Positions 1,161 to 46,437 of a stretch of 64,000 nucleotides of DNA are shown piece after piece (positions within the stretch are counted from its first letter, which is position 1; each line of letters opens with the position of its first letter). The position numbers and the translations under genes were made by a program. Origin of the DNA: a virus (taxonomy: Duplodnaviria; Heunggongvirae; Uroviricota; Caudoviricetes); IMG/VR virus record IMGVR_UViG_3300005399_000003, one strand, 5' to 3'. The notes beneath the pieces were generated by a model, which was not told the origin of the DNA, made no database searches, and saw only the letters and a list, made by a program, of their open reading frames with translations.

Positions 1161-1190
1161 CCTAACCCGATGGGTTAGGTGCGTCTTTTA
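1161..1190 (+). terminator. rho-independent terminator
   Basis: Hairpin CCTAACCC-GA-TGGGTTAGG followed by a TCTTTT run. Confidence 0.6.
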
Positions 1191-1238
1191 GCACAAGTCA
1201 GCTTTGACTTACCACAACGAGAGGGGCATAACAGACCC

Positions 1239-3161: not shown

Positions 3162-3661
3162 CTTTGAAGGAAGAGAAGCTGGCAGCCAAGAAGATCTCCG
3201 AGGAGCTGCTGAGTGAATACGGGATGGAGGTTCTCAAGGTTGCGCTGCTCGGTGTGAAGATCGACGTGCATCCGGGCGCCCATGTCACCTGCTACGACAA
3301 GGACAAGACAGGCCCCGGCGGGGTGCCTTCGCGCTTTTCCAAAGGGCTCGCGGTCAATGGTCAGGAGCTGATCATTAAGGATATTCGATCAGGCTCAAAG
3401 CATAAGGTCATCTTCATCTGCGAGATTGCGGATGGGGAGTTCTCAGGCATCTCCTTCTCGGGCAAGCCGATCCCTTTTGACCGAATGGGCATTGAGATTA
3501 CCGCCTATGATCTGCCCGCAACCGTCAAAGCCTTCGAGAACATCTTTCAGTGCATTCGAGATATGGATGAGGACGATCCGCGCTTCGACGACCCGCCCCA
3601 TGAGGCGCGGCCTGCTATCACTACAGAAGAACTCGCCGCCGAAGGCTTCGGGGCATGGTAA
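3158..3661 (+). CDS. hypothetical protein with C-terminal EGFGAW tail
   Basis: ATGA overlap with the upstream gene. No Mre11/SbcD phosphoesterase motifs are present. Confidence 0.5.
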   Translation: MTLKEEKLAAKKISEELLSEYGMEVLKVALLGVKIDVHPGAHVTCYDKDKTGPGGVPSRFSKGLAVNGQELIIKDIRSGSKHKVIFICEIADGEFSGISFSGKPIPFDRMGIEITAYDLPATVKAFENIFQCIRDMDEDDPRFDDPPHEARPAITTEELAAEGFGAW

Positions 3662-3671
3662 AGGAAAACAC

Positions 3672-4238
3672 ATGAGCAAGATCACCATTCTCGGACACGA
3701 CCCGAGCTTCGCCAACTGGGGCTTTGCCCTTGTCGATGTGGACGTTGCAACGCTAGAGATGCACCCCAAGCTGATTTATCTGCAAAAGACCGCGAAGTCG
3801 AAGAACAAGCAGGTGCGGGCCAGCTCCGACAAGCTGACCCGTGCGCGGCAGCTTCGGGAAACCTTTCTCAAGCTGGAAGCTAAGGCGCATATGAATGCGG
3901 CCGAGGTTCCCGAAGGCTCGAAGTCCGCGGCGGCCGCCACAGCTTTGGGCATCGCTACAGGGGTGCTTGCATGTCACAGCAAACCCTTGATCGAGGTCAA
4001 CCCTGTAGGGGTCAAGAAGGCGATTACGGGCTATTCCCAAGCCTCCAAAGAGGAGATGCTTGAGTGGGCCGTGGGGCTTTACCCTGATCTGCCGTGGAAG
4101 AAGGGTAAGGCGATGCTGGGCAAATATGCCGGGGAGTGCGAACACCTCGCCGATGCGTTGGCGATTGTCTACACTGCGATCCGTACCGAGCAGTTCAAGC
4201 AAGCCGCTGCCATGTTCTCTGTAGGCCACGCCGCATAA
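3672..4238 (+). CDS. RuvC-like Holliday junction resolvase
   Basis: N-terminal ILGHDPSFANWGFALVD and C-terminal EHLADALAIVYTA are RuvC-fold motifs. Confidence 0.65.
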   Translation: MSKITILGHDPSFANWGFALVDVDVATLEMHPKLIYLQKTAKSKNKQVRASSDKLTRARQLRETFLKLEAKAHMNAAEVPEGSKSAAAATALGIATGVLACHSKPLIEVNPVGVKKAITGYSQASKEEMLEWAVGLYPDLPWKKGKAMLGKYAGECEHLADALAIVYTAIRTEQFKQAAAMFSVGHAA

Positions 4239-4324: not shown

Positions 4325-6730
4325 ATGAAGGATACAATCTCCCCCGCCGCAGAAGTGCGGGAATTTGCCCCCGGTATTGGTCGCGCTGTCGCTGATCGCA
4401 CTGTGGCCCGTAAGGTTATCAAACAGCACGATGGCGTGCAGTTTCACAACATCACCCTGCCGCGTGACGACAAGCAGTCATTGGACGCTCAAGTTGCCAA
4501 ACACGCCAAGAACGAAGGGCTGATCTACTCTGGCTATCACGTCAAGCACGGCAATGATCGCAACGTGGTGCTGACCCTCTATGTGACGGGCGAGGAACGT
4601 CGGGAGAACTGGGTTGAAGTGGCAGATCGGGTCGCACTGGGCAATGCATCCCTGAACCCCGCAGACTTTGATAGTGAGGTCGTGATCTTCGCAGATCACC
4701 TACGCCGCGCCACCACCCTCATGTCGGGCCGTCATCTACAGCACGGCGATGAGAACCAGAAGAACCGCCCCTTTGAGGTCTTTACGAACTGTTCGACCGC
4801 ACCTCTGACTTCCCTTTCCTTCTATCTGCTGCTCAACGGCTCGGGCGTTGGGCGAGACTACTCCGATGAAATGATGGTCGCTGACTGGGCCGACATGCCC
4901 ATCGTGGTTCCGGTGATCAGCGAAACCCACGCAGACGTCGCCTCTGGGCTCGCTGCGGGTTACTCGACTATCGCAGACGTTGAACACCTCTACGCTGATC
5001 GCAAGATCACCATCTTCAATGTCCCTGACAGCCGCGAAGGCTGGGCTGAGGGCGTCGCTAAGATGGAAGAGATGGCATATGAAAAGCGCCGCGATGAAGT
5101 GCTGGTGCTGGACTTCTCCGAAGTGCGCCCGAATGGCGCCCCGATCGGCGGCATGCAGAGCCGCCCAGCATCTGGCCCCGGCCCATTGATGTCCGCAATC
5201 GTCAAGATCGCAGCCCTGCGCGACGCAGGCATGCCTGCTTGGCGCTCCAATCTCTATGCTGACCACTACTGCGCCGCGGTTGTTCTGGTGGGCGGTGCGC
5301 GTCGTGCGGCTCGCATGTCGACAAAGTGGTGGATGGACCCCGGCGTTCTGGATTTCGTCAAGGTCAAGATGGGCGGGCGCTTCTTGTGGTCGTCAAACAA
5401 CTCCGTCACCGTCGATGCGCAGTTCTGGACATGCGTGAAAAACGCCACCACCGACAACGAGCATCCCGTCACAGAGCTGGACGAATGGGCGCTCAAGGTC
5501 TTCAACGCTGTCACCGAAGCCTCGTACAAAGACGGCACAGGCGAGCCCGGCTTCATCAATGTGGACATGTTCGACGCCAAAATCCCCAAGGGCGGTGTTG
5601 GTGAGATCAACTTCGACCACGTTCTCGATACGACCCGCTTGAACTTCACCTCTGGCTTTAAGGAGATGATGGTCGATGTGGTGGAGCGCGGTGCAAAGTC
5701 CAGCTTCCCGATGATCACCAACCCCTGCGGGGAAATTCAGCTGGTCAAATGGGGCGGCTACTGCGTGATTGCAGACGTTGTGCCTTATCACGCTGACAAT
5801 CTCGATGACGCCGAGCAGGCGTTCCGGGCCACAACCCGCGCTCTCATTCGTACCAACTTGATGAACCCGCTGTTTAAGGGCGAGGTCAAACGCACCAATC
5901 GCATCGGGGTTGGCATCACGGGTTTGCACGAGTTTGCCCTCAAGTTCTTCGGCTACGGTTGGCACGATCTTGTGGACGAGAAGAAGTCGCAGGACTTCTG
6001 GGATACAATTGCCCGCTTTGCGCGTGCCGTGAAGATCGAGGCGACGATCTATGCGGGCAAGCTAGGGGTTGCATCTCCACACACAGACACCACGATGAAG
6101 CCTGCGGGCACAACCTCCAAGCTCTTCGGGCTGACCGAGGGTGCGCATTTGCCTGCGATGCTGACCTACCTGCGGTGGGTGCAGTTCCGCTCTGACGATC
6201 CGTTGGTCGAAGAGTACAAGGCCAAGGGCTACCCGACCAAGACCCTGCGTAGCTATGATGGCACAACTGTCGTGGGCTTCCCAACTGCCCCGGCGATTGT
6301 CGAGCTGGCCCGCGAATTGGGTTTGGAAGATAAGCTGGTCACGGCCGCCGAAGCCACGCCCGAGGAGCAGTTTGAGTATCTGCGCTTGCTGGAGAAATAC
6401 TGGATCGCGGGTAACATGAAGGACGATACTGGCAATCAGATCTCCTACACGCTCAAGTATGACCCCGAGCAGGTCGACTTCGATGCTTACCGCGCCTCGA
6501 TGTTGAAGAACATGCCGACGGTGAAATGCGTCTCGGTGATGCCCCAGGTCGATACCACGGCCTATGAGTATCAGCCCGAGGAGCCTGTCACCAAAGAGGT
6601 CTTCGAGCGCATCGCGGCAGAGATTGCCAATGCCCAGACGGCACAGGTGATGGAAGAGAGTATCGACTACGAGCATCTTGCCTGCGATGCGGGCGGCTGC
6701 CCGATCTCCTTCGACAAAGACGGCATCTAA
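4325..6730 (+). CDS. nrdJ: ribonucleotide reductase, class II (adenosylcobalamin-dependent, NrdJ-like)
   Basis: NPCGEIQL active-site motif in an 801-aa single chain. No small subunit is encoded nearby. Confidence 0.8.
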   Translation: MKDTISPAAEVREFAPGIGRAVADRTVARKVIKQHDGVQFHNITLPRDDKQSLDAQVAKHAKNEGLIYSGYHVKHGNDRNVVLTLYVTGEERRENWVEVADRVALGNASLNPADFDSEVVIFADHLRRATTLMSGRHLQHGDENQKNRPFEVFTNCSTAPLTSLSFYLLLNGSGVGRDYSDEMMVADWADMPIVVPVISETHADVASGLAAGYSTIADVEHLYADRKITIFNVPDSREGWAEGVAKMEEMAYEKRRDEVLVLDFSEVRPNGAPIGGMQSRPASGPGPLMSAIVKIAALRDAGMPAWRSNLYADHYCAAVVLVGGARRAARMSTKWWMDPGVLDFVKVKMGGRFLWSSNNSVTVDAQFWTCVKNATTDNEHPVTELDEWALKVFNAVTEASYKDGTGEPGFINVDMFDAKIPKGGVGEINFDHVLDTTRLNFTSGFKEMMVDVVERGAKSSFPMITNPCGEIQLVKWGGYCVIADVVPYHADNLDDAEQAFRATTRALIRTNLMNPLFKGEVKRTNRIGVGITGLHEFALKFFGYGWHDLVDEKKSQDFWDTIARFARAVKIEATIYAGKLGVASPHTDTTMKPAGTTSKLFGLTEGAHLPAMLTYLRWVQFRSDDPLVEEYKAKGYPTKTLRSYDGTTVVGFPTAPAIVELARELGLEDKLVTAAEATPEEQFEYLRLLEKYWIAGNMKDDTGNQISYTLKYDPEQVDFDAYRASMLKNMPTVKCVSVMPQVDTTAYEYQPEEPVTKEVFERIAAEIANAQTAQVMEESIDYEHLACDAGGCPISFDKDGI

Positions 6731-6736
6731 GACCTG

Positions 6737-6770
6737 AAAGCCCGGCCGCCTTGGTCGGGCTTTCCCTTAT
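6737..6770 (+). terminator. intrinsic terminator hairpin
   Basis: AAAGCCCGG...CGGGCTTT stem followed by TCCCTT. Confidence 0.5.
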
Positions 6771-6812
6771 CTGCAACGAATAGTCAGCAATGACTTACTC
6801 AGGAACAATCTT

Positions 6813-6992
6813 ATGGCTAGGATCAGGACATCAGACGAGGCGCCCGACTACTTCGACAGCTTGGACGACCTTGCCGATGGCGGGGTCTTTGACCGCATCG
6901 GTGGCGCGCGCAGTGAAGAAGAAGCCCTCTCGGAGCTTTTCGACGACCCGACTTACGGCGGGTCCATGGATGATGAGGACGAAGACGAATGA
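6813..6992 (+). CDS. small highly acidic protein (59 aa)
   Basis: ATG 6813 after AGGAAC. The stop overlaps the next start (ATGA). The C-terminus is the aspartate/glutamate run DDEDEDE. Confidence 0.35.
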   Translation: MARIRTSDEAPDYFDSLDDLADGGVFDRIGGARSEEEALSELFDDPTYGGSMDDEDEDE

Positions 6993-7642
6993 ACAAGCAG
7001 GTCAAACTCACCCCGCAGGGGGAACTTACCGAGCGCGCCAAGGAGGCAGAGTGGTTCGAAACGCCCACTTGGGCCGTCAAAAGCATCCTCAAGAAGGAAC
7101 TGATGACCCTCCACATCGTCGACCCCTGTGCGGGGCGGGGCGTGCTTGGCAAAGCCGCGAAAGAGGCGGACCACTTCGTCCATGAGTATGACCTGAACAA
7201 GTGGCCTGGGCAGCCGCCAAGCGTTCATGCGCCCTTTGACTACCTTGGGCCTATGAATGATGTCAGTCGCACTGTGAAGGGCGCTGTGGGGCCAGCACCG
7301 TTTACTGTACTGATGAACCCGCCATTCACTTTGACCATCGACTTCATCGAGCGCAGCTTCCGTCTTGGCGCGCGTAAGATCGTCATGTTCCAACGCCTTG
7401 CCTTTCTTGAGAGCGCCACCCGTCGAGGCTTCTTCGAGCGCATGATGCCGGCGCGGGTTTGGGTCTGCGGTGATCGTGCGACATGTTGGCGCGGGGACAT
7501 TCCCGAAGAGACCTACACCGACGAGAACGGCGAGGAGATCAGGGGCCGTAAGGGGCGCAGCGCCTCAACACCCCATGCCTGGTTCGTTTGGGAGGCAGGC
7601 CACCGCGGGGCTGGCGTACTCCAGCACCTGTATAAGGACTGA
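6989..7642 (+). CDS. DNA N6-adenine (or N4-C) methyltransferase, orphan
   Basis: Motif I VDPCAGRG is followed by motif IV NPPF. No restriction endonuclease is adjacent. Confidence 0.65.
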   Translation: MNKQVKLTPQGELTERAKEAEWFETPTWAVKSILKKELMTLHIVDPCAGRGVLGKAAKEADHFVHEYDLNKWPGQPPSVHAPFDYLGPMNDVSRTVKGAVGPAPFTVLMNPPFTLTIDFIERSFRLGARKIVMFQRLAFLESATRRGFFERMMPARVWVCGDRATCWRGDIPEETYTDENGEEIRGRKGRSASTPHAWFVWEAGHRGAGVLQHLYKD

Positions 7643-7730
7643 CTTACCCTCTGGACTGAAAACCCTATTGCCCGTCCAGCTATGATGGGCAATAACAAGT
7701 AAGCAATGACTTACACAGCAATGAGGGAAC

Positions 7731-8723
7731 ATGGGCCAAGTATTCACACACCCTGGACAGCCGCAGATGCAGGCAGAGATTATTCTCGCCTCGCAATCGA
7801 CGGTGCCTGGGGCAAAGCCGATCTACACGATCCGTGGGCGCTACCCGCGCCCCATTCATGGCGAGGTCATGACGCATCGCAAGTTCGGCCGCAACGCGCG
7901 GTCATCGCGGGCTGTGCCTGTCATGACGATGCTGCTTGAAACCACGTCGATCCCGTTCGTCCCGTGGCACTGGCACAAGAACCAGCCGGGGATGCAGGGC
8001 AAGGTGCCGCTGACTCCCGAAGAAGAGAAGCAAGCTAAGATTGCTTGGCTGCGGGCGCGTGATGCGGCAGTCGAAGCTGTAGAGGTGCTCTTCGACAAGG
8101 ACGGGCTGAACATTCACAAGCAGAACCCCAATCGCCTGCTTGAGCCCTTCGCGTGGATCGACGTGCTGATCACGACGACCGACATCGAGAACTTCCTGTG
8201 GCTGCGCGACCACGAAGACGCTGAGCCCCACCTTCGGGACTGGGCGCGCTTGGTGAAGCAAGCGGTCGATGCTGCTGAGATTCAAACGCTGGAGCCCGGG
8301 CAGTGGCACTTGCCGTATATCACAGCCGACGACATCGCCCATGCCCGCATGAGCTTTGGCGCAACCCTCTGCGGCTCGCATGGCGATGCGATCAACGAGT
8401 TCCTGCGCAAGCTCAGCGCGGCCCGTTGTGCGCGTATCTCCTACAAGCCCTTCGACGGCGATGCGTCCTACGAAAAAGAGCTTGCCCGTTACGATCTGCT
8501 GGTCAGTTCAGATCGGGTTCATGCCTCCCCGACAGAGCATCAGGCGACACCTGATGTGAAGCACTTCTTCAAGGACTGGGAATATGAGCGCGCGAAGGAG
8601 ATGGGCATCGACCTTGATCGTCTTGCTTGGGACAAGCCCCATCTGCACGGCAATCTCGACGGCTACATTCAGGCCCGCAAGCTGATCCCCAACGAGTGCT
8701 GGCACGAAGGGATCGAGGCATGA
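7731..8723 (+). CDS. putative ThyX-like flavin-dependent thymidylate synthase (divergent)
   Basis: THRKFGRNARSSR resembles the ThyX RHR-X7-S motif. The gene sits in a nucleotide-metabolism neighbourhood. Confidence 0.4.
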   Translation: MGQVFTHPGQPQMQAEIILASQSTVPGAKPIYTIRGRYPRPIHGEVMTHRKFGRNARSSRAVPVMTMLLETTSIPFVPWHWHKNQPGMQGKVPLTPEEEKQAKIAWLRARDAAVEAVEVLFDKDGLNIHKQNPNRLLEPFAWIDVLITTTDIENFLWLRDHEDAEPHLRDWARLVKQAVDAAEIQTLEPGQWHLPYITADDIAHARMSFGATLCGSHGDAINEFLRKLSAARCARISYKPFDGDASYEKELARYDLLVSSDRVHASPTEHQATPDVKHFFKDWEYERAKEMGIDLDRLAWDKPHLHGNLDGYIQARKLIPNECWHEGIEA

Positions 8724-9043
8724 CTGGATACCCGCGCCGCGACGGCTCATGGGATTTCTATGTGATCGAAAGCCTCTGGGAGAAGAACCCAGACAAGGAC
8801 TGGGGTTGCTACATATGGGTTGACACCTTTGACACGAAAGAGCGCATCGAGGCCCTTGGTCTCGACTACGAAATGACAACGCTCAACGCATCAGGCGTCA
8901 TCTGGCAGCAGTCGGGTATTCACGGCACCCAATCGCTCGAATACGCCCGCGTCCTGCTGCGCCTGTGCAACAAGCATCGCCCCGAACACGCGCACCGCAT
9001 CGTTAAGCGCCGCGTGACGCGCGAGACTGAGGTGGTCGAATGA
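8720..9043 (+). CDS. hypothetical protein
   Basis: ATGA overlap with the upstream gene; the ORF is protein-like. Confidence 0.5.
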   Translation: MTGYPRRDGSWDFYVIESLWEKNPDKDWGCYIWVDTFDTKERIEALGLDYEMTTLNASGVIWQQSGIHGTQSLEYARVLLRLCNKHRPEHAHRIVKRRVTRETEVVE

Positions 9044-9104
9044 GAGCCATCACTGATCGCATCTTCAACTGGCTCGCCGACTTTCTCGACGGCGAACTCG
9101 ACGA

Positions 9105-9284
9105 ATGAAGCTGAGCGCCCTGGATTGGTGCAGCGCGGCATGTGCTGACGCTGTGGTCGAAGCCCTCCCGATCAATGCCCTTGTGGCTGCCCGGGAGGTC
9201 TCGACGACCCCAGAGGACTTCTTCTGGGCGGTGCAGGGCGCGGTGCTTCTTCAAGACACACTCAAGCTAAAGGAAACGCAATGA
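9105..9284 (+). CDS. hypothetical small protein
   Basis: Part of a chain of overlapping ATGA junctions: 9040-9108, 9105-9284, 9281-9457. Confidence 0.3.
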   Translation: MKLSALDWCSAACADAVVEALPINALVAAREVSTTPEDFFWAVQGAVLLQDTLKLKETQ

Positions 9285-9457
9285 TCATTGCCTTTGCCCT
9301 TCTTGCCATAAGCCTGCCTGCGAATGCCGCAGCGGGCCTGTTTCTAGCCCGTCAGAACGGCTGGACGAACCCCGAGGTACATGCGGGCATCGCCGCCATC
9401 ATGCCTCCCTACGGCGCATTCTGCGCCATCACCCTTCTCATTCAGGAGACAGAATAA
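9281..9457 (+). CDS. small membrane protein (possible SPFH partner)
   Basis: AAGGAAAC RBS. Two hydrophobic helices. TAATG overlap with the SPFH gene. Confidence 0.4.
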   Translation: MIIAFALLAISLPANAAAGLFLARQNGWTNPEVHAGIAAIMPPYGAFCAITLLIQETE

Positions 9458-10338
9458 TGAGAGCCACCTTTATCGCAATCATCGCCGCAGCAGTGGGCTT
9501 CTTTGTCCTTGCAGTGTCCAGCGTCTACATCGTTGACGAGGGCCACGTCGGCGTCGTCACCAAATGGGGCAAGGCTGTCGCACAGGAAGACCCCTCGGGC
9601 ATTCAGTTCCGCAACCCGATCTCCACAGACATCCTTGAATTCGACGTGCGCGAGCGCCGTTTGGGCGAGACGATGGCGGCCGCAACTGCCAATCAGCTGC
9701 CCATCACCGCAGAAGTGACAGCTTCATGGCGCATGGACCCGACACGGGTGCTGGAGATTTACACCAAATACGGCGGCCCTGAGCGCTTTGAATCGACGAT
9801 CATGGCCCCGCGAATGCGGCAGGCGAGCAAGGCGGGCATTGCAGTCTTTCAAGCGTCTGATCTGATCAAGGATCGCACGACTTCGGCAGCTGAGATTATG
9901 ACAAATCTGACTGAGGCGCTGGAAAACTACCCGATCATCCTCGAATCCTTGCAGATCGAACAGGTTGTGCTCCCGCCGCGGTATCTTGAGGCTGTCATGC
10001 TGAAAGAAGAGGCCCGGGAAGCCGCCCAGCAAGAGAAGTATACGCTGGAGAAGCAGAACCTTCAGGCAAAGCAGGGCGTTCAAACAGCCAATGCTGAGCG
10101 TGACGCAACCATCGCCCGTGCTGACGGGGAAGCGTATCGCGTCGAGAAGGAAGCCGAAGCCCGTGCGAAGGCGATCTTAGCTGAGGGCAAAGCGCAGGCG
10201 AACGCCATCAAGGAGATGCAGGCAGCCCTCGCGAACAACCCGCTGGTGATCGACTACGAGAAGGCCCGCCGCTGGAACGGGCAGATGCCAAGCACAGTGC
10301 TCGGCGACGACACCAACATGCTCATGTCGCTGCGGTAA
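9457..10338 (+). CDS. SPFH/band-7 (HflC/stomatin-like) membrane protein
   Basis: N-terminal TM helix followed by YIVDEGHVGVVTKWGK, the SPFH core. The C-terminus is a coiled coil. Confidence 0.8.
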   Translation: MRATFIAIIAAAVGFFVLAVSSVYIVDEGHVGVVTKWGKAVAQEDPSGIQFRNPISTDILEFDVRERRLGETMAAATANQLPITAEVTASWRMDPTRVLEIYTKYGGPERFESTIMAPRMRQASKAGIAVFQASDLIKDRTTSAAEIMTNLTEALENYPIILESLQIEQVVLPPRYLEAVMLKEEAREAAQQEKYTLEKQNLQAKQGVQTANAERDATIARADGEAYRVEKEAEARAKAILAEGKAQANAIKEMQAALANNPLVIDYEKARRWNGQMPSTVLGDDTNMLMSLR

Positions 10339-10374
10339 CGCAGCGACCCACCCCTAAACTCAAGGAGAATACCC

Positions 10375-10881
10375 ATGAGCAAGACGAAAGTACCCACCGT
10401 GAAAATGGCCCTTAATCTGCTGGAGGGCATCGAAGCACCTTCGCGTGGCAGCGAGCGGGCCGCAGCCCTCGATCTTCGCGCCAATGTCGATGGCCCTGTG
10501 CTTGTCCAACCCGGGCAGACAGTGATGATCCCCACAGGCGTTTATCTCGACATGACCGAAGACCCCACTGTCGCCGCCCTTGTGCTGCCCCGATCTGGCC
10601 TTGGCGCCAAGCAGGGCTTGGTGTTGGGCAATGGCACGGGTTTGATCGACAACGACTATCAGGGCGAAATCAAGATCGCGGCTTGGAACCGCAACGCCGT
10701 GACAAGTCCTGTCGGGCTGGGCGCTAAGCGCAACGGCGCGATTGTCATCGAACCCGGCATGCGTCTGGCGCAGATGCTCTTCCTGAACATCGCCTTCCCT
10801 GAGCTGGACATCACTAGCTTTGAAACCTTCGAGAAGACTGAGCGCGGCGAAAGCGGCTTTGGGTCCACGGGCACGGCGTAA
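10375..10881 (+). CDS. dut: dUTP diphosphatase
   Basis: GLIDNDYQGEIKI and a C-terminal ERGESGFGSTG motif. Confidence 0.9.
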   Translation: MSKTKVPTVKMALNLLEGIEAPSRGSERAAALDLRANVDGPVLVQPGQTVMIPTGVYLDMTEDPTVAALVLPRSGLGAKQGLVLGNGTGLIDNDYQGEIKIAAWNRNAVTSPVGLGAKRNGAIVIEPGMRLAQMLFLNIAFPELDITSFETFEKTERGESGFGSTGTA

Positions 10882-10937
10882 CGGCCAGGTACAATGGGCG
10901 CGGGGAAGCTCGCGCCCATTTCAATTCACGGAGAGAC

Positions 10938-11594
10938 ATGATGGCAAACATTGGACTGACAGGGACGCATCGCACGGGCAAGACGACCCTGGCAAAGGCA
11001 TGGGCAGAGCAAGAAGGCGTTCAATACGTCACCCTGTCCGTTACTGAGGTGACGAAAGAAATGGGCATGACAACCCGACAGCTTCGGGACGATGCGGATG
11101 CCCGCTTAGAGCTTCAAAGCGGGCTTGTAGATCGCTGCCGTCAGCGCTTCTTTGAACCCCGTGCAGGGTTCATCTCGGATCGCACGCCCATCGACGTTGC
11201 AGCATACACCATGGCTGATGCAGTTGAAGGCTTTTACAGCGATGCGCAGTGGGACAAGGTGCAGACGATTGTTGCCGATTGCATAGACATCACGAACCAT
11301 GCCTTTCATCATCTGCTGATGCTCGTGCCTGAGAAGAGCATTGGATATGAGACAGGTGAAGGTAAGCCCGCGGCTGACCTTGCCTATCAGCTGCACCACA
11401 GTCTCGTGATTGCCGGGCTGCTGCGTGAGGAGGGGGTGACAGTTCCTGTCCAGCGCATGCGCAAGGGCCGCGCTCTCAAGGTGTCTGAGCGGCTCGCGGT
11501 GCTGAAATACATCTCCGAGAAACTTGTTCATCATCACTTCCGCATGGACGTGGAGAACCTGCGCGCAGCGGGGCATATCACCACCGTTCAATAG
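10938..11594 (+). CDS. P-loop nucleotide kinase, thymidylate/dNMP kinase-like
   Basis: GLTGTHRTGKTT P-loop, and DRTPIDVAAY resembling the TMK DRY..S.AYQ motif. Confidence 0.5.
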   Translation: MMANIGLTGTHRTGKTTLAKAWAEQEGVQYVTLSVTEVTKEMGMTTRQLRDDADARLELQSGLVDRCRQRFFEPRAGFISDRTPIDVAAYTMADAVEGFYSDAQWDKVQTIVADCIDITNHAFHHLLMLVPEKSIGYETGEGKPAADLAYQLHHSLVIAGLLREEGVTVPVQRMRKGRALKVSERLAVLKYISEKLVHHHFRMDVENLRAAGHITTVQ

Positions 11595-11662
11595 GTCACA
11601 TGCGACACTTGCCCGTCCACAAGGGCGGGCGTATCAATTAGTCAGCAATGAATGAGAGACAC

Positions 11663-11956
11663 ATGAGCAACAGCGTTCACGCAGTTCCTGATCCCAGCGA
11701 AGAGCTTGCCCGGAAGAGCAACGCAACGCTGGTGATGATCTTGGAGAAGATCGAGAGCACGGAGTGGTCTTATCAGCGCGGGGTTGATGCCCTCGATGTC
11801 CTTTGGGGCGTCTGCTCGGGCCTCGTTGATCGTGATCTGATGGACACGATCACGGCGACCCACACGCATTGCACCGCAGAGATCAAGGCAGGGCGAGAGT
11901 TTCACGGGGAACGCGCGTCTACACCACACGATCAAGATGAAATGGGAACTTGGTAA
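11663..11956 (+). CDS. hypothetical protein
   Basis: ORF with an upstream GAGAGA; TAATG junction downstream. Confidence 0.45.
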   Translation: MSNSVHAVPDPSEELARKSNATLVMILEKIESTEWSYQRGVDALDVLWGVCSGLVDRDLMDTITATHTHCTAEIKAGREFHGERASTPHDQDEMGTW

Positions 11957-12129
11957 TGAGCATCATTATGGCAACACGCTTTTCGAGCGAGGGCGGTGAT
12001 TCAGTCGCGATGAACGTCCCCGCGGATGTGCCATTCGCAAACATCGTCCATGCAATCCCTGTCCCGACACACGGGCTGGCGATTGTCATGGGCATGAAGT
12101 TTATCGCTCAGAAGGAGGCGGCAGCGTAA
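11956..12129 (+). CDS. hypothetical small protein (57 aa)
   Basis: TAATG overlaps at both ends. Confidence 0.35.
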   Translation: MSIIMATRFSSEGGDSVAMNVPADVPFANIVHAIPVPTHGLAIVMGMKFIAQKEAAA

Positions 12130-12704
12130 TGGCGACGTTTCTTTCCGCACTCGACTTCGAGACCACGGGTCTCGATTACATGAAGGGTGAGCGCATCATC
12201 GAGGCATGCGTTCAGGTCTGGCGGCTGGAAGATCGCAAGAAGGTCATCGACTGGACACAGCTGATCAACCCGCAAGGTCAGCGCATCAACCCACGCGCTC
12301 AGAAGGTGCATGGCATCTCTGCTGCTGATCTGATCGGCAAGCCCGTCTTCAAAGAGGTCGCGCCCAAGATCACGGCGATGCTCGGGCGCAGCAAAGCGGT
12401 TGTCACCCACAACGGCGAGTTCTTCGACCTTCCCTTTCTCGCCTATGAGCTGAGCAAGGTCGATGTCCCTTTGCCCAAGGGGCTTGAGTCCTTTGACACT
12501 ATGACTGGAGGAATGTTTGCGAGTTACGATCAAAAACCCCCGAGCCTCGGTGAACTGTGCTGGGCAATGGGGGTGAAGTACGACCCCGAGCAGGCACACG
12601 GAGCGTCATACGATGTTTCGATTATGATGGAGGCATTCTTTGCTGGTGTTGATTTGGGGTATTTCAATATCGACCATCTTCTCGAATCTTCTGTGGCTGC
12701 ATGA
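12129..12704 (+). CDS. DnaQ-like 3'-5' exonuclease (DEDDh)
   Basis: LDFETTGL (ExoI), HNGEFFDLPFL (ExoII) and HGASYD (ExoIII). Confidence 0.8.
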   Translation: MATFLSALDFETTGLDYMKGERIIEACVQVWRLEDRKKVIDWTQLINPQGQRINPRAQKVHGISAADLIGKPVFKEVAPKITAMLGRSKAVVTHNGEFFDLPFLAYELSKVDVPLPKGLESFDTMTGGMFASYDQKPPSLGELCWAMGVKYDPEQAHGASYDVSIMMEAFFAGVDLGYFNIDHLLESSVAA

Positions 12705-12773
12705 GAAAGTCAAAGATGACTTATTGGAGCTTAGAAAACATGCTATCATGTAACTCTAATCAAAGGAGCGCGC

Positions 12774-13376
12774 ATGATGGCTGATGTGGGTCAGAAGTTC
12801 GGAAAGCTGACGGTGATTCAAAAGCTGCCGAAAGGGGTAAATCTTTGCCGCTGCGAGTGTGGCAGTGAAACGAAGGTTTCCAATACACGACTGCCGAAGT
12901 CGACGGGATGTCGGGAATGTAATCTTGAGCGCCTGCGTAGCGAAAAGTGGAGCGACGATCCGGCATACAAATGCTGGGCCAGTATGAAAACGCGCTGCCT
13001 GAATAGAAACCACAAGCATTACGACAGATACGGCGGGCGCGGAATTAAAGTCTGCGACCGATGGGTCGAGAGCTTCCAAAGCTTTCTTGAGGACATGGGT
13101 GAAAGACCCTCGCCCAATCACACCATTGAGCGGATCAACCACGACGGAGACTACGAACCGTCAAACTGCAAGTGGATGCTGCGACGCTATCAGAACGACA
13201 ACACCTCTCGAACGCGAGACGTTTCGGTGGATGGGATGTCCTTCAAGACGCTCAGCAAGGCGGCGACCCATTTCGGCATCCCCTACAAGACCGTCTACGC
13301 CCGGGTGGCGACGCTCGGTTGGGACATGAAAAAGGCACTGACGACGCCCGTGGCGGGCAGAAAGGAAGTAACATGA
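12774..13376 (+). CDS. HNH homing endonuclease
   Basis: Cys-rich N-terminus, YGGRGIKVC, INHDGDYEPSNCKWM HNH-like motif. Confidence 0.7.
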   Translation: MMADVGQKFGKLTVIQKLPKGVNLCRCECGSETKVSNTRLPKSTGCRECNLERLRSEKWSDDPAYKCWASMKTRCLNRNHKHYDRYGGRGIKVCDRWVESFQSFLEDMGERPSPNHTIERINHDGDYEPSNCKWMLRRYQNDNTSRTRDVSVDGMSFKTLSKAATHFGIPYKTVYARVATLGWDMKKALTTPVAGRKEVT

Positions 13377-13663
13377 AAAGCATCTCCAACAAACTCAACT
13401 GGCTGATGCCGGGCGTTCAGCATGTCGCGCGCATCAAGGATGATCGGGTGAACCCCAATCGTCTTGAAAGCATGTGGCTTGGGTTCTCAGCGGGGGTGGC
13501 TGAGCTGCCCGTTCTGCTGATGATGCACATCGTCATGTTTCTCTACGCTATTGCTATCGCGCTCTGTACCTTCATCGCGACGATCGGCATGTCATTCGCC
13601 TTTGTGGGTGCGAGCCTTGTCTTGGGCGTGAAGGGCAAGATGGAGCGTCGGGACCATGAGTGA
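13373..13663 (+). CDS. membrane protein
   Basis: AAAGGAAG RBS. ATGA overlap. Two to three TM helices. Confidence 0.55.
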   Translation: MKSISNKLNWLMPGVQHVARIKDDRVNPNRLESMWLGFSAGVAELPVLLMMHIVMFLYAIAIALCTFIATIGMSFAFVGASLVLGVKGKMERRDHE

Positions 13664-14208: not shown

Positions 14209-14709
14209 ATGCTAAAGACACCACCAAAACGAGCAGGGCGCGACCCGATCTTGAACGTGCTGACAAGCCTCAGTCACGGCAAGACCTATGATGGGCTGGA
14301 TGAAGGCTACGCAAGCCTTTCGCACTGGAATCCTGAGTTTGAATACTCCTTCGACAAGTCGTTTGAGCCAATCGACTTCATGAAGCCTGAATACGCTGTC
14401 GAGGGCCGTACATGCGAATGGACGGGCGAGCAGATGTTCCTCAGTGACTACGGGGTGATCGACACCATCGAGCAGTTCGACGAGATGTTCGGCGAAGCGC
14501 TGCGGAATGACGAGCGCACTTTCTTTGTGACATTCGTGGAGATTGCCCGCAAAGATCAACCCGCAAGCGGCGGGTGGCGCTACCACAAGTGGGGTCCATA
14601 CTTCGGCACACAGAACCCGAAGCATGAGTACATCTACCACGATACGCATATCGACCGGGTGTTCACCTTCAGCATTCATCTGATCGAAGCAGAGCAGGTG
14701 ACGGCATGA
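14209..14709 (+). CDS. hypothetical protein
   Basis: ATG 14209 after GAAAGAACAGGAAAAC. Overlaps the RtcB start. Confidence 0.5.
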   Translation: MLKTPPKRAGRDPILNVLTSLSHGKTYDGLDEGYASLSHWNPEFEYSFDKSFEPIDFMKPEYAVEGRTCEWTGEQMFLSDYGVIDTIEQFDEMFGEALRNDERTFFVTFVEIARKDQPASGGWRYHKWGPYFGTQNPKHEYIYHDTHIDRVFTFSIHLIEAEQVTA

Positions 14710-16058
14710 GCGAGATTGAATCCCTCTACAGCGGCAACGACCTCATTCGCTGGGGTCTGAAGCCTGGGGCTTGGTTCAAGGACGCGATCGTCAAGGCGAA
14801 TGCGCTTTGGGATGCGGGCTACTCGGAAGACGAAATCAAGGTGCTCGTCTCGAAAGACGAGCCCACCTTCCTCGAAATGCGAAAGCCCGAGAATGGCTCG
14901 GCGTTCAGTGTCTTCCTTGAGCCTGAGAACGACATTGAGCAGGCTAATCGGGATCAGGTCGTAGAGGCCATGCGCGAAATCATGCGCGTGCCTGTCGTCA
15001 CGGGCGGCGCGGTGATGCCTGACGCTTGCCCTGCCGGCACGATCCCGGTGGGCGGCGTCGTCGAGTCGAGTGCCATTCACCCGAGCTATCACAGCGCCGA
15101 TGTGTGCTGCTCGATGGCGATGACGGTGATTAAGGAAGACGTCGATCAGATGGAGCTGCTGGACAAGATCCAGGAGCTGACCCACTTCGGCCCAACCAAG
15201 CGGGAGACGCGCCCTGTCGAGTTACCGGAAGGGTTCACTGACGGGTGGGGCGATAACATCTTCCTGACGGGTCTCGAAGACGTGGCGCGCAATCACTTCA
15301 CCACGCAGGGTGATGGCAATCACTTCTACTTCGTGGGGCGCTCGGAGGTGACAGGCGATGTGTGCATGGTCTCGCATCACGGCAGCCGCGGCTTCGGGGC
15401 GCAGGTCTACAAGCGCGGTAAGCAGGCTGCCGAAAAGCACACGCGCAACGTGGCGCCAAAAGTGCCTAAGCAACATGCCTGGATTTCGCCCGATGATCAC
15501 GGGCATCTGTATTGGGAAGCGCTGCGCGTTGTGCGTGAATGGACGAAGCTCAACCACTTCATGCTGCATGACGAAATCCTGCGGCAGATGAATGCGACAG
15601 CCGATTGTCAAACGTGGAACCCGCATAACTTCGTCTTTGAGCGGAACGGCATGTTCTATCATGCCAAGGGGGCGACGCCCTCCTTCTTTACTGGCTTCGA
15701 CGACGATGACGGCATGACCTTAATCCCCATGAACATGGCAGAGCCCATTCTGGTCACGTTCCATGAAGACAACCCGCATGCTCTCGGCTTCGCGCCACAT
15801 GGGGCAGGGCGGAACATGAGCCGCACAGCTTTCCTCAAAGAGCATGCGCCCGAGGCTCCTGCTGACATTGACGTGCGGTTCTGGTGCGGGATCGAGGACA
15901 AGAGTGAGCTGCCGCAAGCCTATAAGTCTGCGGCGCAGGTCACGAAAGCGATCAGCGAACACGAGCTAGCCCACATCGTTGACCGCATCATTCCTTATGG
16001 CTCGATCATGGCGGGCGATTGGGAGAGCGAAGCCCCGTGGCGCAAGAAGCGCAAGTAA
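14706..16058 (+). CDS. rtcB: RtcB-family 3'-phosphate/5'-hydroxyl RNA ligase
   Basis: MPDACPAG, GDGNHFYF, HHGSRGFG and PHGAGRNMSRT match RtcB metal- and GTP-binding motifs. Confidence 0.8.
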   Translation: MSEIESLYSGNDLIRWGLKPGAWFKDAIVKANALWDAGYSEDEIKVLVSKDEPTFLEMRKPENGSAFSVFLEPENDIEQANRDQVVEAMREIMRVPVVTGGAVMPDACPAGTIPVGGVVESSAIHPSYHSADVCCSMAMTVIKEDVDQMELLDKIQELTHFGPTKRETRPVELPEGFTDGWGDNIFLTGLEDVARNHFTTQGDGNHFYFVGRSEVTGDVCMVSHHGSRGFGAQVYKRGKQAAEKHTRNVAPKVPKQHAWISPDDHGHLYWEALRVVREWTKLNHFMLHDEILRQMNATADCQTWNPHNFVFERNGMFYHAKGATPSFFTGFDDDDGMTLIPMNMAEPILVTFHEDNPHALGFAPHGAGRNMSRTAFLKEHAPEAPADIDVRFWCGIEDKSELPQAYKSAAQVTKAISEHELAHIVDRIIPYGSIMAGDWESEAPWRKKRK

Positions 16059-23848: not shown

Positions 23849-24167
23849 ACATGCAGAAGCGGCACTCTATGCCGAGATGATGGGCGGCGACCCTGACGAC
23901 GTGACTGCCGAAGACTATATGGCGTATTATGAAAGCCTGAAGCCACCGGCGCCGAACATGATCGCGCTGGATGCGGACATGGCCCTGAGTTCGATCAGGC
24001 AATGGGGTGACGAAGATAGCCCGCCATCTGTCCCGGAGCTGATCGAGAGCCTGTTTCCCAAGCTGACTAAAGAGGAAGCTGAGACGGTCGCAAAGGGGCT
24101 TGAGCTGCTGGCAGCACAGTATGACGACAGCGCCCATGACGAAGACGACGAGGAAGACCCTGAATAG
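23841..24167 (+). CDS. acidic hypothetical protein
   Basis: 8-nt overlap with the upstream gene. The C-terminus is DEDDEEDPE. Confidence 0.45.
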   Translation: MGEHAEAALYAEMMGGDPDDVTAEDYMAYYESLKPPAPNMIALDADMALSSIRQWGDEDSPPSVPELIESLFPKLTKEEAETVAKGLELLAAQYDDSAHDEDDEEDPE

Positions 24168-24175
24168 CCCTCAGA

Positions 24176-24262
24176 GCGCCCCGCTGAGAGCTTTGGCGGG
24201 GCTTTTGCATACACACCCCCATGAAACACAGTGGAAGCGCTCTACGGGGCGCTTTTTCTTTG
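24176..24262 (+). terminator. two tandem rho-independent terminators
   Basis: GCGCCCCGC...GCGGGGCTTTTG, then AGCGC...GGGGCGCTTTTTC. Confidence 0.55.
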
Positions 24263-24324
24263 CAGTAGGCATCAAGTCAGTTTTGACTTACCGCCCCCGA
24301 GGGGTGATAACGGGTGACAGTCAA

Positions 24325-24717
24325 ATGAAGGGTGCCGTGATGTTCGGGAAAACTGCTATGCTTTGCCTTGCTCTGAATGCCTATTTCGAGGCGCGGGGCG
24401 AGGGTGTTGAAGGCATTCATGCCGTAACGCATGTGGTGATCAATCGCATCGACAGCCCGCGCTGGCCCAATGAGGCGTGCGAGGTGGTCTTTCAGCCCTG
24501 GCAGTTCACCTGGACGATGGAGAAGACATACGAGGTCAAAGAGGATGTCTTGGCTGAGGTCTACGAGCATGTGGTGGATGCCGTGCAGCTTCCAGACAGC
24601 ACCCGAGGCGCCACGCACTATCACGCCACATATGTGTCACCTAAATGGGCAGGTATTTACCCCCGCACAGCTTTTGTTGGTGATCATATCTTTTATAAGG
24701 CGCTGTCTGGCATGTGA
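24325..24717 (+). CDS. SleB-family cell-wall hydrolase (putative endolysin)
   Basis: LALNAYFEARGEG...AVTHVVINR is the Hydrolase_2/SleB signature. Confidence 0.75.
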   Translation: MKGAVMFGKTAMLCLALNAYFEARGEGVEGIHAVTHVVINRIDSPRWPNEACEVVFQPWQFTWTMEKTYEVKEDVLAEVYEHVVDAVQLPDSTRGATHYHATYVSPKWAGIYPRTAFVGDHIFYKALSGM

Positions 24718-28083: not shown

Positions 28084-28301
28084 TGGACGACTTCATCAAC
28101 TGGATCGCGGACAAATATTCAGTCAGCACGGTAATCCTCTTTGCAGTGCTGGCAGTCTCGGCATTGGCAATGCTGATCGTCATGCTGCTCTCAACGGTCG
28201 ATCACTTCTTCGGTGACTTCGCAGCTATTATGACACTGCTGGTCATGCTCGCGGCATTCCCTGTCTATGTGCTGGTCAAATACCTGCGGGGCAAAGGCTG
28301 A
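28083..28301 (+). CDS. small membrane protein (2 TM)
   Basis: TAATG overlap; hydrophobic. Confidence 0.45.
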   Translation: MDDFINWIADKYSVSTVILFAVLAVSALAMLIVMLLSTVDHFFGDFAAIMTLLVMLAAFPVYVLVKYLRGKG

Positions 28302-46384: not shown

Positions 46385-46437
46385 GCTTTGAAATCAGTCA
46401 GCACTGAGTTACAATGCCCAGGCCAAAGAGGTTCATC

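What the first reader, a model, noticed from the sequence alone, without database searches (positions are those of the whole stretch)
9105..10338. Phage-encoded SPFH/band-7 membrane protein co-translated with a small two-helix membrane protein
SPFH proteins (HflK/C, QmcA, YqiK) scaffold FtsH and membrane microdomains. A phage copy embedded in the nucleotide-metabolism operon (TAATG-coupled to a 58-aa membrane peptide) suggests manipulation of host FtsH or membrane organisation, or superinfection exclusion. Not a common phage gene.
Basis: partly seen in the sequence, partly recalled or inferred. Interest (0 to 1): 0.55.

Follow-up and report, generated by a model that had tools for sequence, protein, structure and literature searches.

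The report
Phage SPFH membrane protein with hairpin partner
An uncultured marine-type tailed phage carries a prohibitin/HflC-like membrane scaffold gene that always travels with a previously undescribed 55-65-residue two-helix membrane protein, forming a small accessory module whose role in infection is still untested.

Summary
Window 9457-10338 encodes a 293-aa SPFH/Band_7 protein (Pfam 1.9e-26). It has an N-terminal TM helix, an SPFH domain and an 87-residue helix, and its best structural matches are prohibitin and HflK/C. Window 9281-9457 encodes a 58-aa two-helix hairpin whose stop overlaps the SPFH start (TAATG). The stated start, 9105, belongs to a separate, unconserved 59-aa ORF.

The new result is that the hairpin is a real, conserved family with no match in any curated library searched. 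In all 15 independent hairpin-bearing contigs besides the window, a hairpin gene sits directly upstream of an SPFH gene. This applies to every SPFH at least 54% identical to this one. No SPFH below 50% identity has a hairpin, including the solitary bacterial copies.

The pair sits in different genomic neighbourhoods. Four syntenic RNR/ThyX-dUTPase-NTPase relatives lack it, so it is an accessory cassette rather than a core or structural gene.

SPFH genes themselves recur in phages (N4-like, jumbo, Rhizobium T5-like, haloviruses), so "not common" is only partly right.

Function is inferred only. The most likely role is a periplasm-facing cage with a dedicated membrane micro-partner that remodels inner-membrane organisation or FtsH-type quality control. 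I rate it a new variant of a known kind, of moderate interest.

The parts
9281..9457 (+). 58-aa two-helix membrane hairpin, the conserved partner of the SPFH gene. It carries the motifs P-x-G-A-A-x-G in helix 1 and (L/M)PPxGAxxA in helix 2.
   Evidence: ORF. Coding signature only in this frame. AF2 model has pLDDT 92.9, with helices 2-26, 31-40 and 42-57. Homologues lie directly upstream of SPFH in 15 other contigs. An exhaustive profile search finds 71 proteins at E<=1e-3, all but five of them 53-75 aa long. No Pfam, PHROG, NCBIfam or PADLOC hit.
9457..10338 (+). 293-aa SPFH/Band_7 protein of prohibitin/HflC type, including the stop codon.
   Evidence: Pfam PF01145 E=1.9e-26. phrog_200 E=2e-48. 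PDB sequence hits: prohibitin-2 at 4e-11 and HflK at 1e-4. AF2 pLDDT 89. Foldseek top matches: PHB2 8rrh_B at 1.2e-15, then HflC and HflK from 7vhq.
9460..9519 (+). N-terminal transmembrane helix of the SPFH protein (residues 2-21). There is no cysteine before or within the TM helix (residues 1-26), so it is not a lipoprotein.
   Evidence: AF2 helix 2-21. A basic residue precedes the helix and acidic DEGH follows it across the family. The inferred topology is N-in with the bulk periplasmic, as in HflK/C.
9523..9969 (+). SPFH domain (residues 23-171).
   Evidence: Pfam match over residues 25-200. Strand and helix pattern of the AF2 model.
9976..10236 (+). Long coiled-coil helix (residues 174-260), the wall and roof element of SPFH cages.
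   Evidence: AF2 predicts a single helix 174-260 with pLDDT above 90 for most of its length. It aligns to the coiled-coil regions of PHB, HflK/C and erlin.
10237..10335 (+). Conserved C-terminal segment with the invariant W273, G275 and P278 (R-W-N-G-x-x-P).
   Evidence: Invariant columns in the 28-sequence alignment A2. The last 14 residues have low pLDDT.
9444..9448 (+). AGGAG ribosome-binding site for SPFH, located inside the 3' end of the hairpin ORF.
   Evidence: Read directly from the sequence. The hairpin-to-SPFH gap is -11 to +19 nt in 12 loci.
8720..9284 (+). Three window-specific small ORFs (8720-9043, 107 aa; 9040-9108, 22 aa; 9105-9284, 59 aa) that link ThyX to the module through ATGA overlaps. 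They are not part of the conserved module.
   Evidence: Coding signature in frame. No homologue in any related locus. No family hits for the two ORFs scanned: the 59-aa ORF, and the 8627-9043 reading frame that contains the 107-aa ORF.
7731..8723 (+). ThyX-like thymidylate synthase, the upstream flank.
   Evidence: phrog_85 E=8.5e-72.
10375..11594 (+). dUTPase (10375-10881) and P-loop NTPase/kinase (10938-11594), the downstream flank.
   Evidence: Pfam dUTPase E=2e-25 and AAA_28 E=2e-8. phrog_135 and phrog_2107.

Best explanation
This is a two-gene accessory membrane module carried by a tailed phage.

Shown:
- The larger gene encodes a single-pass, prohibitin/HflC-like SPFH protein.
- The smaller gene encodes a two-helix hairpin that is inherited strictly together with it and is translationally coupled to it.
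- The module is expressed from the co-directional early/middle DNA-metabolism gene block.

Inferred from solved SPFH assemblies:
- The SPFH protein inserts N-in into the host inner membrane.
- It homo-oligomerises through its long helix into a periplasm-facing cage that fences off a patch of membrane.
- The hairpin is its dedicated intramembrane partner, either an assembly cofactor or a resident client. It would do the job that NfeD proteins do for stomatin- and flotillin-type SPFH proteins, but without their OB-fold domain.

Inferred, weakest step:
- During infection the cage alters inner-membrane organisation or protein quality control. The most plausible route is engaging or insulating the host FtsH protease or its substrates, which would stabilise phage or host membrane functions until lysis.
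For: - SPFH identity and architecture: Pfam Band_7 at 1.9e-26. The AF2 model (pLDDT 89) shows a TM helix, an SPFH domain and an 87-residue helix. Its best structural matches are the cage-forming PHB1/2, HflK/C, erlin, stomatin and QmcA complexes.
- Topology: charges flanking the TM helix favour an N-in, periplasmic topology across the family. This matches HflK/C (PMC12624060).
- Strict pairing from the SPFH side: every locus with an SPFH at least 54% identical has a homologous hairpin ORF directly upstream, and L052 adds one more.
- Strict pairing from the hairpin side: all four lookups that started from a hairpin found Band_7 immediately downstream.
- Coupling: the gaps are -11 to +19 nt, and the SPFH ribosome-binding site lies inside the hairpin ORF.
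- Co-inheritance: hairpin and SPFH divergences are correlated (Mantel r=0.85, p=1e-4).
- The hairpin is a real protein: it has a coding signature, an AF2 pLDDT of 92.9, and 66 short full-length relatives among 71 profile hits.
- The pair moves as a unit between different neighbourhoods: ThyX/dUTPase here, PolA-GapR/RecU-SbcCD, an integrase-bearing phage, and RusA/endolysin.
- The pair is absent from syntenic relatives.
- FtsH link: FtsH periplasmic domains bind the SPFH2 domains inside the HflK/C cage (PMC12624060).
Against: - No experiment or complex model links the hairpin physically to the SPFH protein. Correlated divergence is expected from co-inheritance alone.
- The SPFH TM helix is not more conserved in the hairpin-associated clade than in the others (identity 0.24 against 0.64 for the domain, compared with 0.16 against 0.47). 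There is therefore no sequence sign of a TM-TM interface.
- Hairpin topology cannot be called from its charges.
- The protein scores far below the curated HflC and HflK cut-offs (37 against 134 bits, and 24 against 159 bits). It is one gene, not a K/C pair, so FtsH binding cannot be assumed.
- Human PHB1/2 did not stably co-purify with its AAA protease (PMC12624060).
- No functional study of any phage SPFH protein was found.
- The genomic context of about 50 remote hairpin clusters could not be examined.
Confidence: 0.45

Rival explanations
1. Superinfection exclusion or inter-phage competition. The early-expressed cage and hairpin alter the inner membrane so that DNA of a second phage cannot enter, in the manner of small membrane exclusion proteins such as T4 Imm and Sp.
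For: The module is an accessory, mobile, patchily distributed cassette, as exclusion genes usually are. It sits in early/middle gene blocks. It also occurs in an integrase-bearing phage next to the repressor region (L045). Both products are membrane proteins.
Against: No hit to any PADLOC defence model even at E<=1. No similarity to known exclusion proteins in PHROGs. Most carriers look like large virulent phages with their own replication machinery. No SPFH protein is known to me to act this way (own knowledge).
Confidence: 0.2
2. Lysis-timing device. The hairpin is a holin- or antiholin-like membrane effector, and the SPFH cage sequesters or releases it.
For: The hairpin has the size and two-TM layout of small holins. 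One relative has the module about 1.4 kb from a GH108 endolysin gene (L050).
Against: In the window, the endolysin-like gene (24100-24717, phrog_938) and a separate holin-like two-TM ORF (28083-28301) lie 14 to 18 kb away. The module sits among DNA-metabolism genes in nearly all loci. The hairpin has no holin family hit. It lacks the usual basic, charged C-terminal tail; its tails are short and mostly acidic.
Confidence: 0.1
3. The SPFH gene is a captured host housekeeping gene (a bacterial prohibitin homologue) kept as a generic membrane-stress helper. The hairpin is just a neighbouring small gene with no specific link to it.
For: Solitary chromosomal homologues at 45-49% identity exist in Hyphomicrobiales, Rhizobiaceae and Pleionea, named 'prohibitin family protein'. 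Other phages carry SPFH genes with unrelated small neighbours or none.
Against: Hairpin-SPFH adjacency was found in 16 of 16 hairpin-bearing contigs, the window included, across rearranged neighbourhoods, with tight coupling. That is hard to explain without a functional link. No bacterial solitary copy has the hairpin, even when searched with a broad profile.
Confidence: 0.1
4. Virion-associated protein. The SPFH protein is packaged or co-assembled with particles and acts at entry.
For: The Band_7 protein CBB_29 of jumbo phage CBB (29% identity) gave 8 unique peptides in CsCl-purified virions and is annotated as a structural protein.
Against: The window gene lies in the DNA-metabolism block, about 35 kb from the structural module, which begins at TerL (45104). 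It has a membrane anchor. Large SPFH cages could co-purify with particles. The gene is absent from syntenic relatives, which does not fit an essential structural part.
Confidence: 0.05

Closest known systems
Bacterial prohibitin homologues (SPFH4 'p-prohibitins' of Hinderhofer et al. 2009, PMC2636767) and eukaryotic PHB1/PHB2
   Same: The domain order is the same: N-terminal TM helix, SPFH domain, long coiled coil. These give the best sequence and fold matches (PHB2 at 4e-11; 8rrh_B at 1.2e-15). Relatives are named 'prohibitin family protein' by NCBI. No NfeD partner is present. Orientation is predicted away from the cytoplasm.
   Different: The gene is phage-borne, and a single gene is present rather than a PHB1/PHB2 pair. 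It is only about 22% identical to PHB. It carries an obligate hairpin partner, which the bacterial solitary homologues lack.
E. coli HflK/HflC-FtsH complex
   Same: The N terminus resembles that of HflC (weak TIGR01932 match over residues 8-137). It shares the periplasm-facing single-pass topology and the cage-type fold (7vhq, 7wi3 and 9cz2).
   Different: It fails both curated equivalog models. There is one gene rather than a K/C heteropair, and it lacks the long HflK N-terminal tail. FtsH binding was not tested.
SPFH-NfeD operons (QmcA-YbbJ, YqiK-YqiJ, PH1511-PH1510, FloT-NfeD2)
   Same: The logic is the same: an SPFH gene is co-transcribed with a dedicated small membrane partner thought to aid oligomerisation (PMC13086221; PMC2636767). 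The fold also matches QmcA-YbbJ, 8z5g.
   Different: The partner here is only 53-75 aa. It has two helices, no OB-fold or ClpP domain, and no NfeD Pfam hit. It lies upstream of a prohibitin-type SPFH gene, not a stomatin- or flotillin-type one.
Other phage and giant-virus Band_7 proteins (phrog_200; Alteromonas phage AD45-P1, Rhizobium phages RHEph10 and RHph_N1_15, jumbo phages CBB and GAP32, haloviruses HF1 and HF2, E. coli phage Skarpretter)
   Same: They share the superfamily and overall fold. Several also sit beside thymidylate synthase or dUTPase genes.
   Different: They are at most 36% identical. None has the hairpin. Their neighbours differ: lipoprotein-like ORFs, unrelated TM ORFs, or none.

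Membership tests
SPFH / Band_7 superfamily (PF01145) | SPFH domain scoring above the Pfam gathering threshold | tested here: met
   93.6 bits against a cut-off of 23.6, E=1.9e-26, residues 25-200.
SPFH / Band_7 superfamily (PF01145) | SPFH alpha/beta fold followed by a long coiled-coil helix, as in cage-forming members | tested here: met
   AF2 pLDDT 89, helix 174-260. Foldseek probability 1.00 to PHB, HflK/C, erlin, stomatin and QmcA.
SPFH / Band_7 superfamily (PF01145) | Assembly into a multimeric ring or cage on a membrane | not testable with these tools
   Only monomer prediction was available. The assembly is inferred from homologues.
HflK / HflC (FtsH modulators) | Score above the curated equivalog cut-offs TIGR01932 and TIGR01933 | tested here: not met
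   hflC 37.3 bits against 134.4; hflK 24.4 bits against 159.4.
HflK / HflC (FtsH modulators) | Two adjacent paralogous genes forming a heteromer | tested here: not met
   There is a single SPFH gene. Its neighbours are the hairpin and the dUTPase.
HflK / HflC (FtsH modulators) | Binding of the FtsH periplasmic domain inside the cage | not testable with these tools
   This needs co-purification or a complex structure.
Prokaryotic prohibitin homologues (SPFH4) | Closest similarity to prohibitins, a single N-terminal TM helix, and no NfeD partner | tested here: met
   The best PDB hits are PHB2 and PHB1. TM helix at residues 2-21. No NfeD domain in the neighbouring ORFs scanned. Relatives are named 'prohibitin family protein'.
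NfeD family (partner of SPFH1/2/5), for the 58-aa hairpin | C-terminal OB-fold NfeD domain (PF01957) following the TM helices | tested here: not met
   No Pfam hit at E<=0.01. The 58 residues are fully taken up by helices 2-26, 31-40 and 42-57.
Holins, for the 58-aa hairpin | Small TM protein encoded in a lysis cassette next to an endolysin, with a charged (usually basic) C-terminal tail and a holin family match | tested here: not met
   No PHROG lysis hit. The endolysin-like gene is 14 kb away. The hairpin tails are short and mostly acidic.
Known anti-phage defence systems (PADLOC-DB) | Match to any defence-system protein model | tested here: not met
   No family matched at E<=1 for SPFH, the hairpin or the two upstream ORFs scanned.
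Bacterial lipoproteins (the PHROG 200 label is 'lipoprotein') | Lipobox with an invariant cysteine after the signal sequence | tested here: not met
   There is no cysteine in SPFH residues 1-60. The cysteine in the hairpin motif is not invariant.

The most novel reading that the evidence does not exclude
The hairpin-SPFH pair is a self-contained cage-plus-client system. The phage makes its own homo-oligomeric SPFH cage together with a dedicated micro-protein that lives inside it. This would reveal a second, NfeD-independent class of SPFH partner. The cage would either hold a membrane-active hairpin in check or use it to capture a host target such as FtsH. If so, it would be a one-gene-plus-one-peptide model for how SPFH cages select and confine clients.
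Probability: 0.2. Interest if true: 0.65.

Novelty: new variant of a known kind. Interest (0 to 1): 0.48.

Why it matters
SPFH cages (HflK/C, prohibitin, stomatin, flotillin, erlin) have recently been solved, but what they enclose and how clients are chosen is still open. No phage SPFH protein has a tested function.

This module offers a strictly co-inherited, translationally coupled pair: a single homo-oligomer-type SPFH gene and a 55-65-residue hairpin. It gives a minimal, genetically tractable system for asking whether SPFH cages work with dedicated intramembrane partners. It also allows a direct test of what a virus gains from building such a cage in the host inner membrane.

The work also defines a small-protein family that no curated library searched here contains.

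Tried and rejected
- Megablast of 6 kb around the module against 50,697 phage records gave no match, so no close cultured relative exists.
- The hairpin alone found only itself in the word-indexed protein search. A profile was needed.
- tblastn of two hairpins against deposited phages gave nothing credible.
- A profile of the broad SPFH alignment could not be used to scan genome contigs. The hairpin alignment could not be used to scan viral contigs.
- Two degenerate DNA motif scans of viral contigs recovered only L001 plus two chance matches.
- I tested whether the SPFH TM helix is more conserved in the hairpin-bearing clade, which would suggest a TM-TM interface. It is not.
- I tried the positive-inside rule on the hairpin. 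It was inconclusive.
- Promoter and terminator scans around the module gave counts equal to shuffled controls.
- PADLOC gave no hits, and NfeD, holin and lipoprotein memberships were rejected.
- The lookup of the exact window protein's contig failed.
- I considered that the hairpin and SPFH were one gene split by a frameshift. I rejected this because the two ORFs have their own starts, different frames and variable gaps in 12 loci, and each SPFH keeps its own TM helix.
- The three upstream ORFs (107, 22 and 59 aa) were tested as possible module members. They have no homologues in any related locus.
Full report
**1. What is in the sequence**

The region holds three consecutive + strand ORFs:
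- 9105-9284 (59 aa)
- 9281-9457 (58 aa)
- 9457-10338 (293 aa)

The 293-aa product matches Pfam Band_7/SPFH at E=1.9e-26, which is 93.6 bits against a cut-off of 23.6. It also matches phrog_200 at 2e-48.

The 58-aa product is strongly hydrophobic (GRAVY 0.89) with two predicted TM segments. Its TAA stop shares one base with the SPFH ATG, giving the TAATG junction. An AGGAG lies 8 nt upstream of that ATG, inside the hairpin ORF.

That ORF is not the membrane peptide.

A chain of ATGA overlaps links five genes in order: ThyX (ends 8723), a 107-aa ORF (8720-9043), a 22-aa ORF (9040-9108), the 59-aa ORF and the hairpin. All of them show high GC1, low GC2 and high GC3. All have a positive codon-usage score only in their own frame.

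No promoter-like or terminator-like signals above shuffled expectation occur in 6500-13500.

**2. Context**

The window is a tailed-phage genome. The identified genes are:
- SbcC-like nuclease (1179-3161)
- RuvC-like resolvase (3426-4238)
- ribonucleotide reductase (4325-6730)
- methyltransferase (6989-7642)
- ThyX-like thymidylate synthase (7731-8723)
- dUTPase (10375-10881)
- P-loop NTPase/kinase (10938-11594)
- DnaQ-like exonuclease (12129-12704)
- HNH endonuclease (12774-13376)
- RtcB ligase (14706-16058)
- helicase (38796-40286, minus strand)
- large terminase (45104-46384)
- portal (46414-48096)
- tape measure (55088-58426)

The placement in a nucleotide-metabolism block is therefore correct.

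No integrase was found among the larger ORFs scanned, and there are no tRNAs.

The terminase is 53-55% identical to those of 112-122-kb Pseudomonas ('nickie') and Rhizobium (RHEph10) siphophages. There is no nucleotide-level match to any deposited phage. The identical SPFH protein occurs on metagenomic contigs up to 94.7 kb.

**3. The SPFH protein**

An AlphaFold2 model built on 28 homologues has mean pLDDT 89. It shows:
- a TM helix at residues 2-21
- an alpha/beta SPFH domain at 23-171
- one uninterrupted helix at 174-260
- a short helix at 262-272
- a disordered tail

Foldseek against the PDB ranks human prohibitin-2 first (8rrh_B, 1.2e-15). HflC and HflK (7vhq, 7wi3, 9cz2), erlin1/2, stomatin and QmcA-YbbJ follow, all with probability 1.00. 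Sequence search of the PDB gives prohibitin-2 at 4e-11 and HflK at 1e-4.

The protein is not an HflK or HflC orthologue. TIGR01932 scores 37 bits against a cut-off of 134, and TIGR01933 scores 24 against 159. Only one SPFH gene is present.

Across the family a basic residue precedes the TM helix and an acidic D-E-G-H follows it. By the positive-inside rule this puts the bulk of the protein in the periplasm, as for HflK/C (PMC12624060). This topology is an inference.

The PHROG label 'lipoprotein' does not apply, because there is no N-terminal cysteine.

The best family fit is the bacterial prohibitin-like group. This is SPFH4 in Hinderhofer et al. 2009, a group that lacks NfeD partners (PMC2636767). 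NCBI names the relatives 'prohibitin family protein'.

**4. The hairpin and the pairing (the main new result)**

The 58-aa protein has no hit in Pfam, PHROGs, NCBIfam or PADLOC. It is nevertheless a real family.

I collected genomic loci for SPFH relatives from viral, metagenomic and genome collections and from exact-protein lookups.
- Every locus whose SPFH is at least 54% identical to the window protein has a homologous 53-64-aa ORF immediately upstream. These loci are L016, L024, L003, L004, L043, L005, L044, L045, L001 and L052.
- None of about 30 loci with SPFH at or below 49% identity has the hairpin, even when searched with a profile built from 73 hairpin sequences.
- That negative set includes bacterial chromosomal copies in Hyphomicrobiales, Rhizobiaceae, Pleionea, Shewanella and Parashewanella.

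I then tested the reverse direction. A profile search with nine hairpins found 13 protein clusters among 5.8 billion. All four contigs looked up from the hairpin side carry a Band_7 gene directly downstream (L048-L051).

Adjacency therefore held in all 15 hairpin-bearing contigs besides the window. The gaps are -11 to +19 nt.

Pairwise divergences of hairpin and SPFH are correlated (Mantel r=0.85, p=1e-4). This shows co-inheritance as a unit. It does not by itself show physical contact.

The hairpin AF2 model has pLDDT 92.9, with helices 2-26, 31-40 and 42-57 and a kink at the conserved PP. Conserved features are G19, P43, A49 and L53, an A-P-x-G-(A/Y)-x-x-G motif in helix 1 and an (L/M)PPxGAxxA motif in helix 2.

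An exhaustive profile search of 1.84 billion representatives gives 71 hits at E<=1e-3. All but five are 53-75 aa long, and the long ones are multi-stretch low-complexity matches. The contexts of these remoter members could not be examined, because the look-ups were exhausted and pattern scans were unproductive.

No deposited phage carries a hairpin.

**5. Accessory, not core**

The pair occurs in different neighbourhoods:
- between ThyX and dUTPase in the window
- between PolA-GapR and RecU-exonuclease-SbcCD (L003, L005, L048, L051, L052)
- among small unknown ORFs (L043, L049)
- after an SNF2 helicase in a phage with integrase and repressor genes (L045)
- next to RusA and near a GH108 endolysin (L050)
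- next to an SbtA-like transporter (L001)

Of 52 viral loci that share the ThyX-like gene, only one has any SPFH gene within 5 kb, and none has a hairpin. Four of them keep the ThyX-dUTPase(-NTPase) order of the window, two with RNR upstream, with nothing SPFH-like in between (L057, L061, L064, L067).

The three small ORFs between ThyX and the hairpin have no homologue in any related locus.

The gene is not a widespread core or structural gene of the group.

**6. How common are phage SPFH genes?**

tblastn finds relatives in 81 phage records with the window protein and in 94 with a Rhizobium phage homologue, out of 50,697 records. The carriers include:
- N4-like Alteromonas and Agrobacterium phages
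- RHEph10-like Rhizobium phages
- jumbo Erwinia, Yersinia, Cronobacter, Pectobacterium and Serratia phages
- haloarchaeal viruses
- Faecalibacterium and Fusobacterium phages

Predicted viral structures add giant viruses. The gene is therefore rare per genome but recurrent, and already annotated. No functional study of a phage SPFH protein turned up.

Adjacency to thymidylate synthase or dUTPase recurs in four settings:
- Rhizobium phage RHph_N1_15 has TS, a small ORF, SPFH, a small ORF, dUTPase, a P-loop NTPase and then rIIA. This mirrors the window, although the SPFH proteins are only 27% identical.
- E. coli phage Skarpretter has Band 7 followed by dUTPase.
- Alteromonas phage AD45-P1 has a split ThyX followed by SPFH.

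The partners in those phages differ (lipoprotein-like ORFs or none).

The jumbo-phage homologue CBB_29 was detected in purified virions with 8 peptides (PMC5259590).

**7. Mechanism**

Shown:
- a membrane-anchored prohibitin/HflC-type SPFH protein
- a co-inherited, translationally coupled two-helix hairpin
- accessory status
- location in an early/middle DNA-metabolism block

Inferred from solved homologues:
- homo-oligomeric cage formation on the periplasmic face of the inner membrane
- the hairpin acting as an intramembrane cofactor or client, analogous in logic to NfeD partners but lacking their OB-fold

The purpose is the least certain part. By homology, the default is modulation of FtsH-type membrane proteolysis or of membrane organisation during infection.

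Counter-evidence and gaps:
- There is no sign of extra constraint on the SPFH TM helix.
- Hairpin topology is undetermined.
- The curated HflK and HflC models are not met.
- No interaction data exist.

Rivals are superinfection exclusion, lysis timing, a passive host-derived gene with an unrelated neighbour, and virion association.
- Lysis timing is disfavoured because an endolysin-like gene (24100-24717) and a separate holin-like ORF (28083-28301) lie far away.
- The passive-neighbour idea is disfavoured by adjacency in all 16 hairpin-bearing contigs, the window included.

**8. Verdict**

The SPFH gene is a new member of a known, already annotated class of phage genes. Its obligate pairing with a previously undescribed hairpin micro-protein family is, as far as the libraries and literature searched here show, new. 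I rate the whole as a new variant of a known kind, of moderate interest.

Noticed in passing
window 8720-9459: An unbroken chain of start/stop overlaps (ATGA four times, then TAATG) links ThyX, a 107-aa ORF, a 22-aa ORF, a 59-aa ORF, the hairpin and SPFH. All have coding signatures in frame. The three small upstream ORFs have no homologues in any related locus.
   Followed up: partly
L002 868-4416: In a viral contig, a solitary SPFH gene (46% identity, no hairpin) sits between two ORFs. One carries the N-terminal domain (RPOL_N, 8.6e-16) and the other the catalytic domain (RNA_pol, 4.1e-91) of a T7-like RNA polymerase. The polymerase gene therefore appears split around the SPFH gene.
   Followed up: partly
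L105 (Rhizobium phage RHph_N1_15), L107 (E. coli phage Skarpretter), L046 (Alteromonas phage AD45-P1): SPFH genes recur beside thymidylate synthase and/or dUTPase genes in unrelated phages. RHph_N1_15 repeats the window order TS - SPFH - dUTPase - P-loop NTPase, although its SPFH is only 27% identical.
   Followed up: partly
L105 1648-1896; L106 1182-1472: In Rhizobium and Mesorhizobium phages, lipoprotein-like small ORFs (signal sequence ending in a cysteine lipobox) lie just upstream of the SPFH gene, in place of the hairpin.
   Followed up: no
L047 (Pectobacterium phage CBB) 2426-3301: The Band_7 protein CBB_29 was identified by mass spectrometry in CsCl-purified virions (8 peptides, 29.6% coverage) and is annotated as a structural protein. 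An 83-aa two-TM ORF lies two genes upstream.
   Followed up: partly
L001 1341-3513: Here the hairpin-SPFH pair lies directly after an SbtA-like Na+-dependent bicarbonate transporter gene (Pfam Sbt_1, 6.3e-87) on a 5.5-kb contig filed as viral. The contig may be cellular, or the transporter may be an auxiliary metabolic gene.
   Followed up: no
window 24100-24717 and 28083-28301: An endolysin-like ORF (phrog_938, 3.7e-23) and a separate 72-aa two-TM holin-like ORF with a basic tail lie 14 to 18 kb from the SPFH module and are not adjacent to each other.
   Followed up: no
window 14706-16058: The phage encodes an RtcB RNA ligase. A Pseudomonas aeruginosa SPFH protein (PaFlo8) is reported embedded in the rtc locus (PMC13086221). 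This is probably a coincidence.
   Followed up: no
L003 4598-4831, L005 4586-4828, L048 3759-4001, L051 3037-3279, L024 694-936, L002 5954-6268: A conserved 77-80-aa coiled-coil protein sits directly upstream of the hairpin in the PolA-GapR type relatives. It also occurs elsewhere in L002. It is absent from the window.
   Followed up: partly
one search hits H79-H95 (Escherichia phage N4 gp20 and many N4-like phages): The C-terminal 50 or so residues of the Rhizobium phage SPFH protein match short regions in N4 gp20 and relatives, some of them annotated as SPFH. SPFH-derived genes may therefore be widespread in N4-like phages.
   Followed up: no
window 10938-11594, 37513-38124 (-), 38121-38738 (-): The phage carries two different kinase-like P-loop genes and a deoxyribonucleoside 5'-monophosphate phosphatase, in addition to RNR, ThyX and dUTPase. 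This is an unusually full nucleotide-metabolism set.
   Followed up: no
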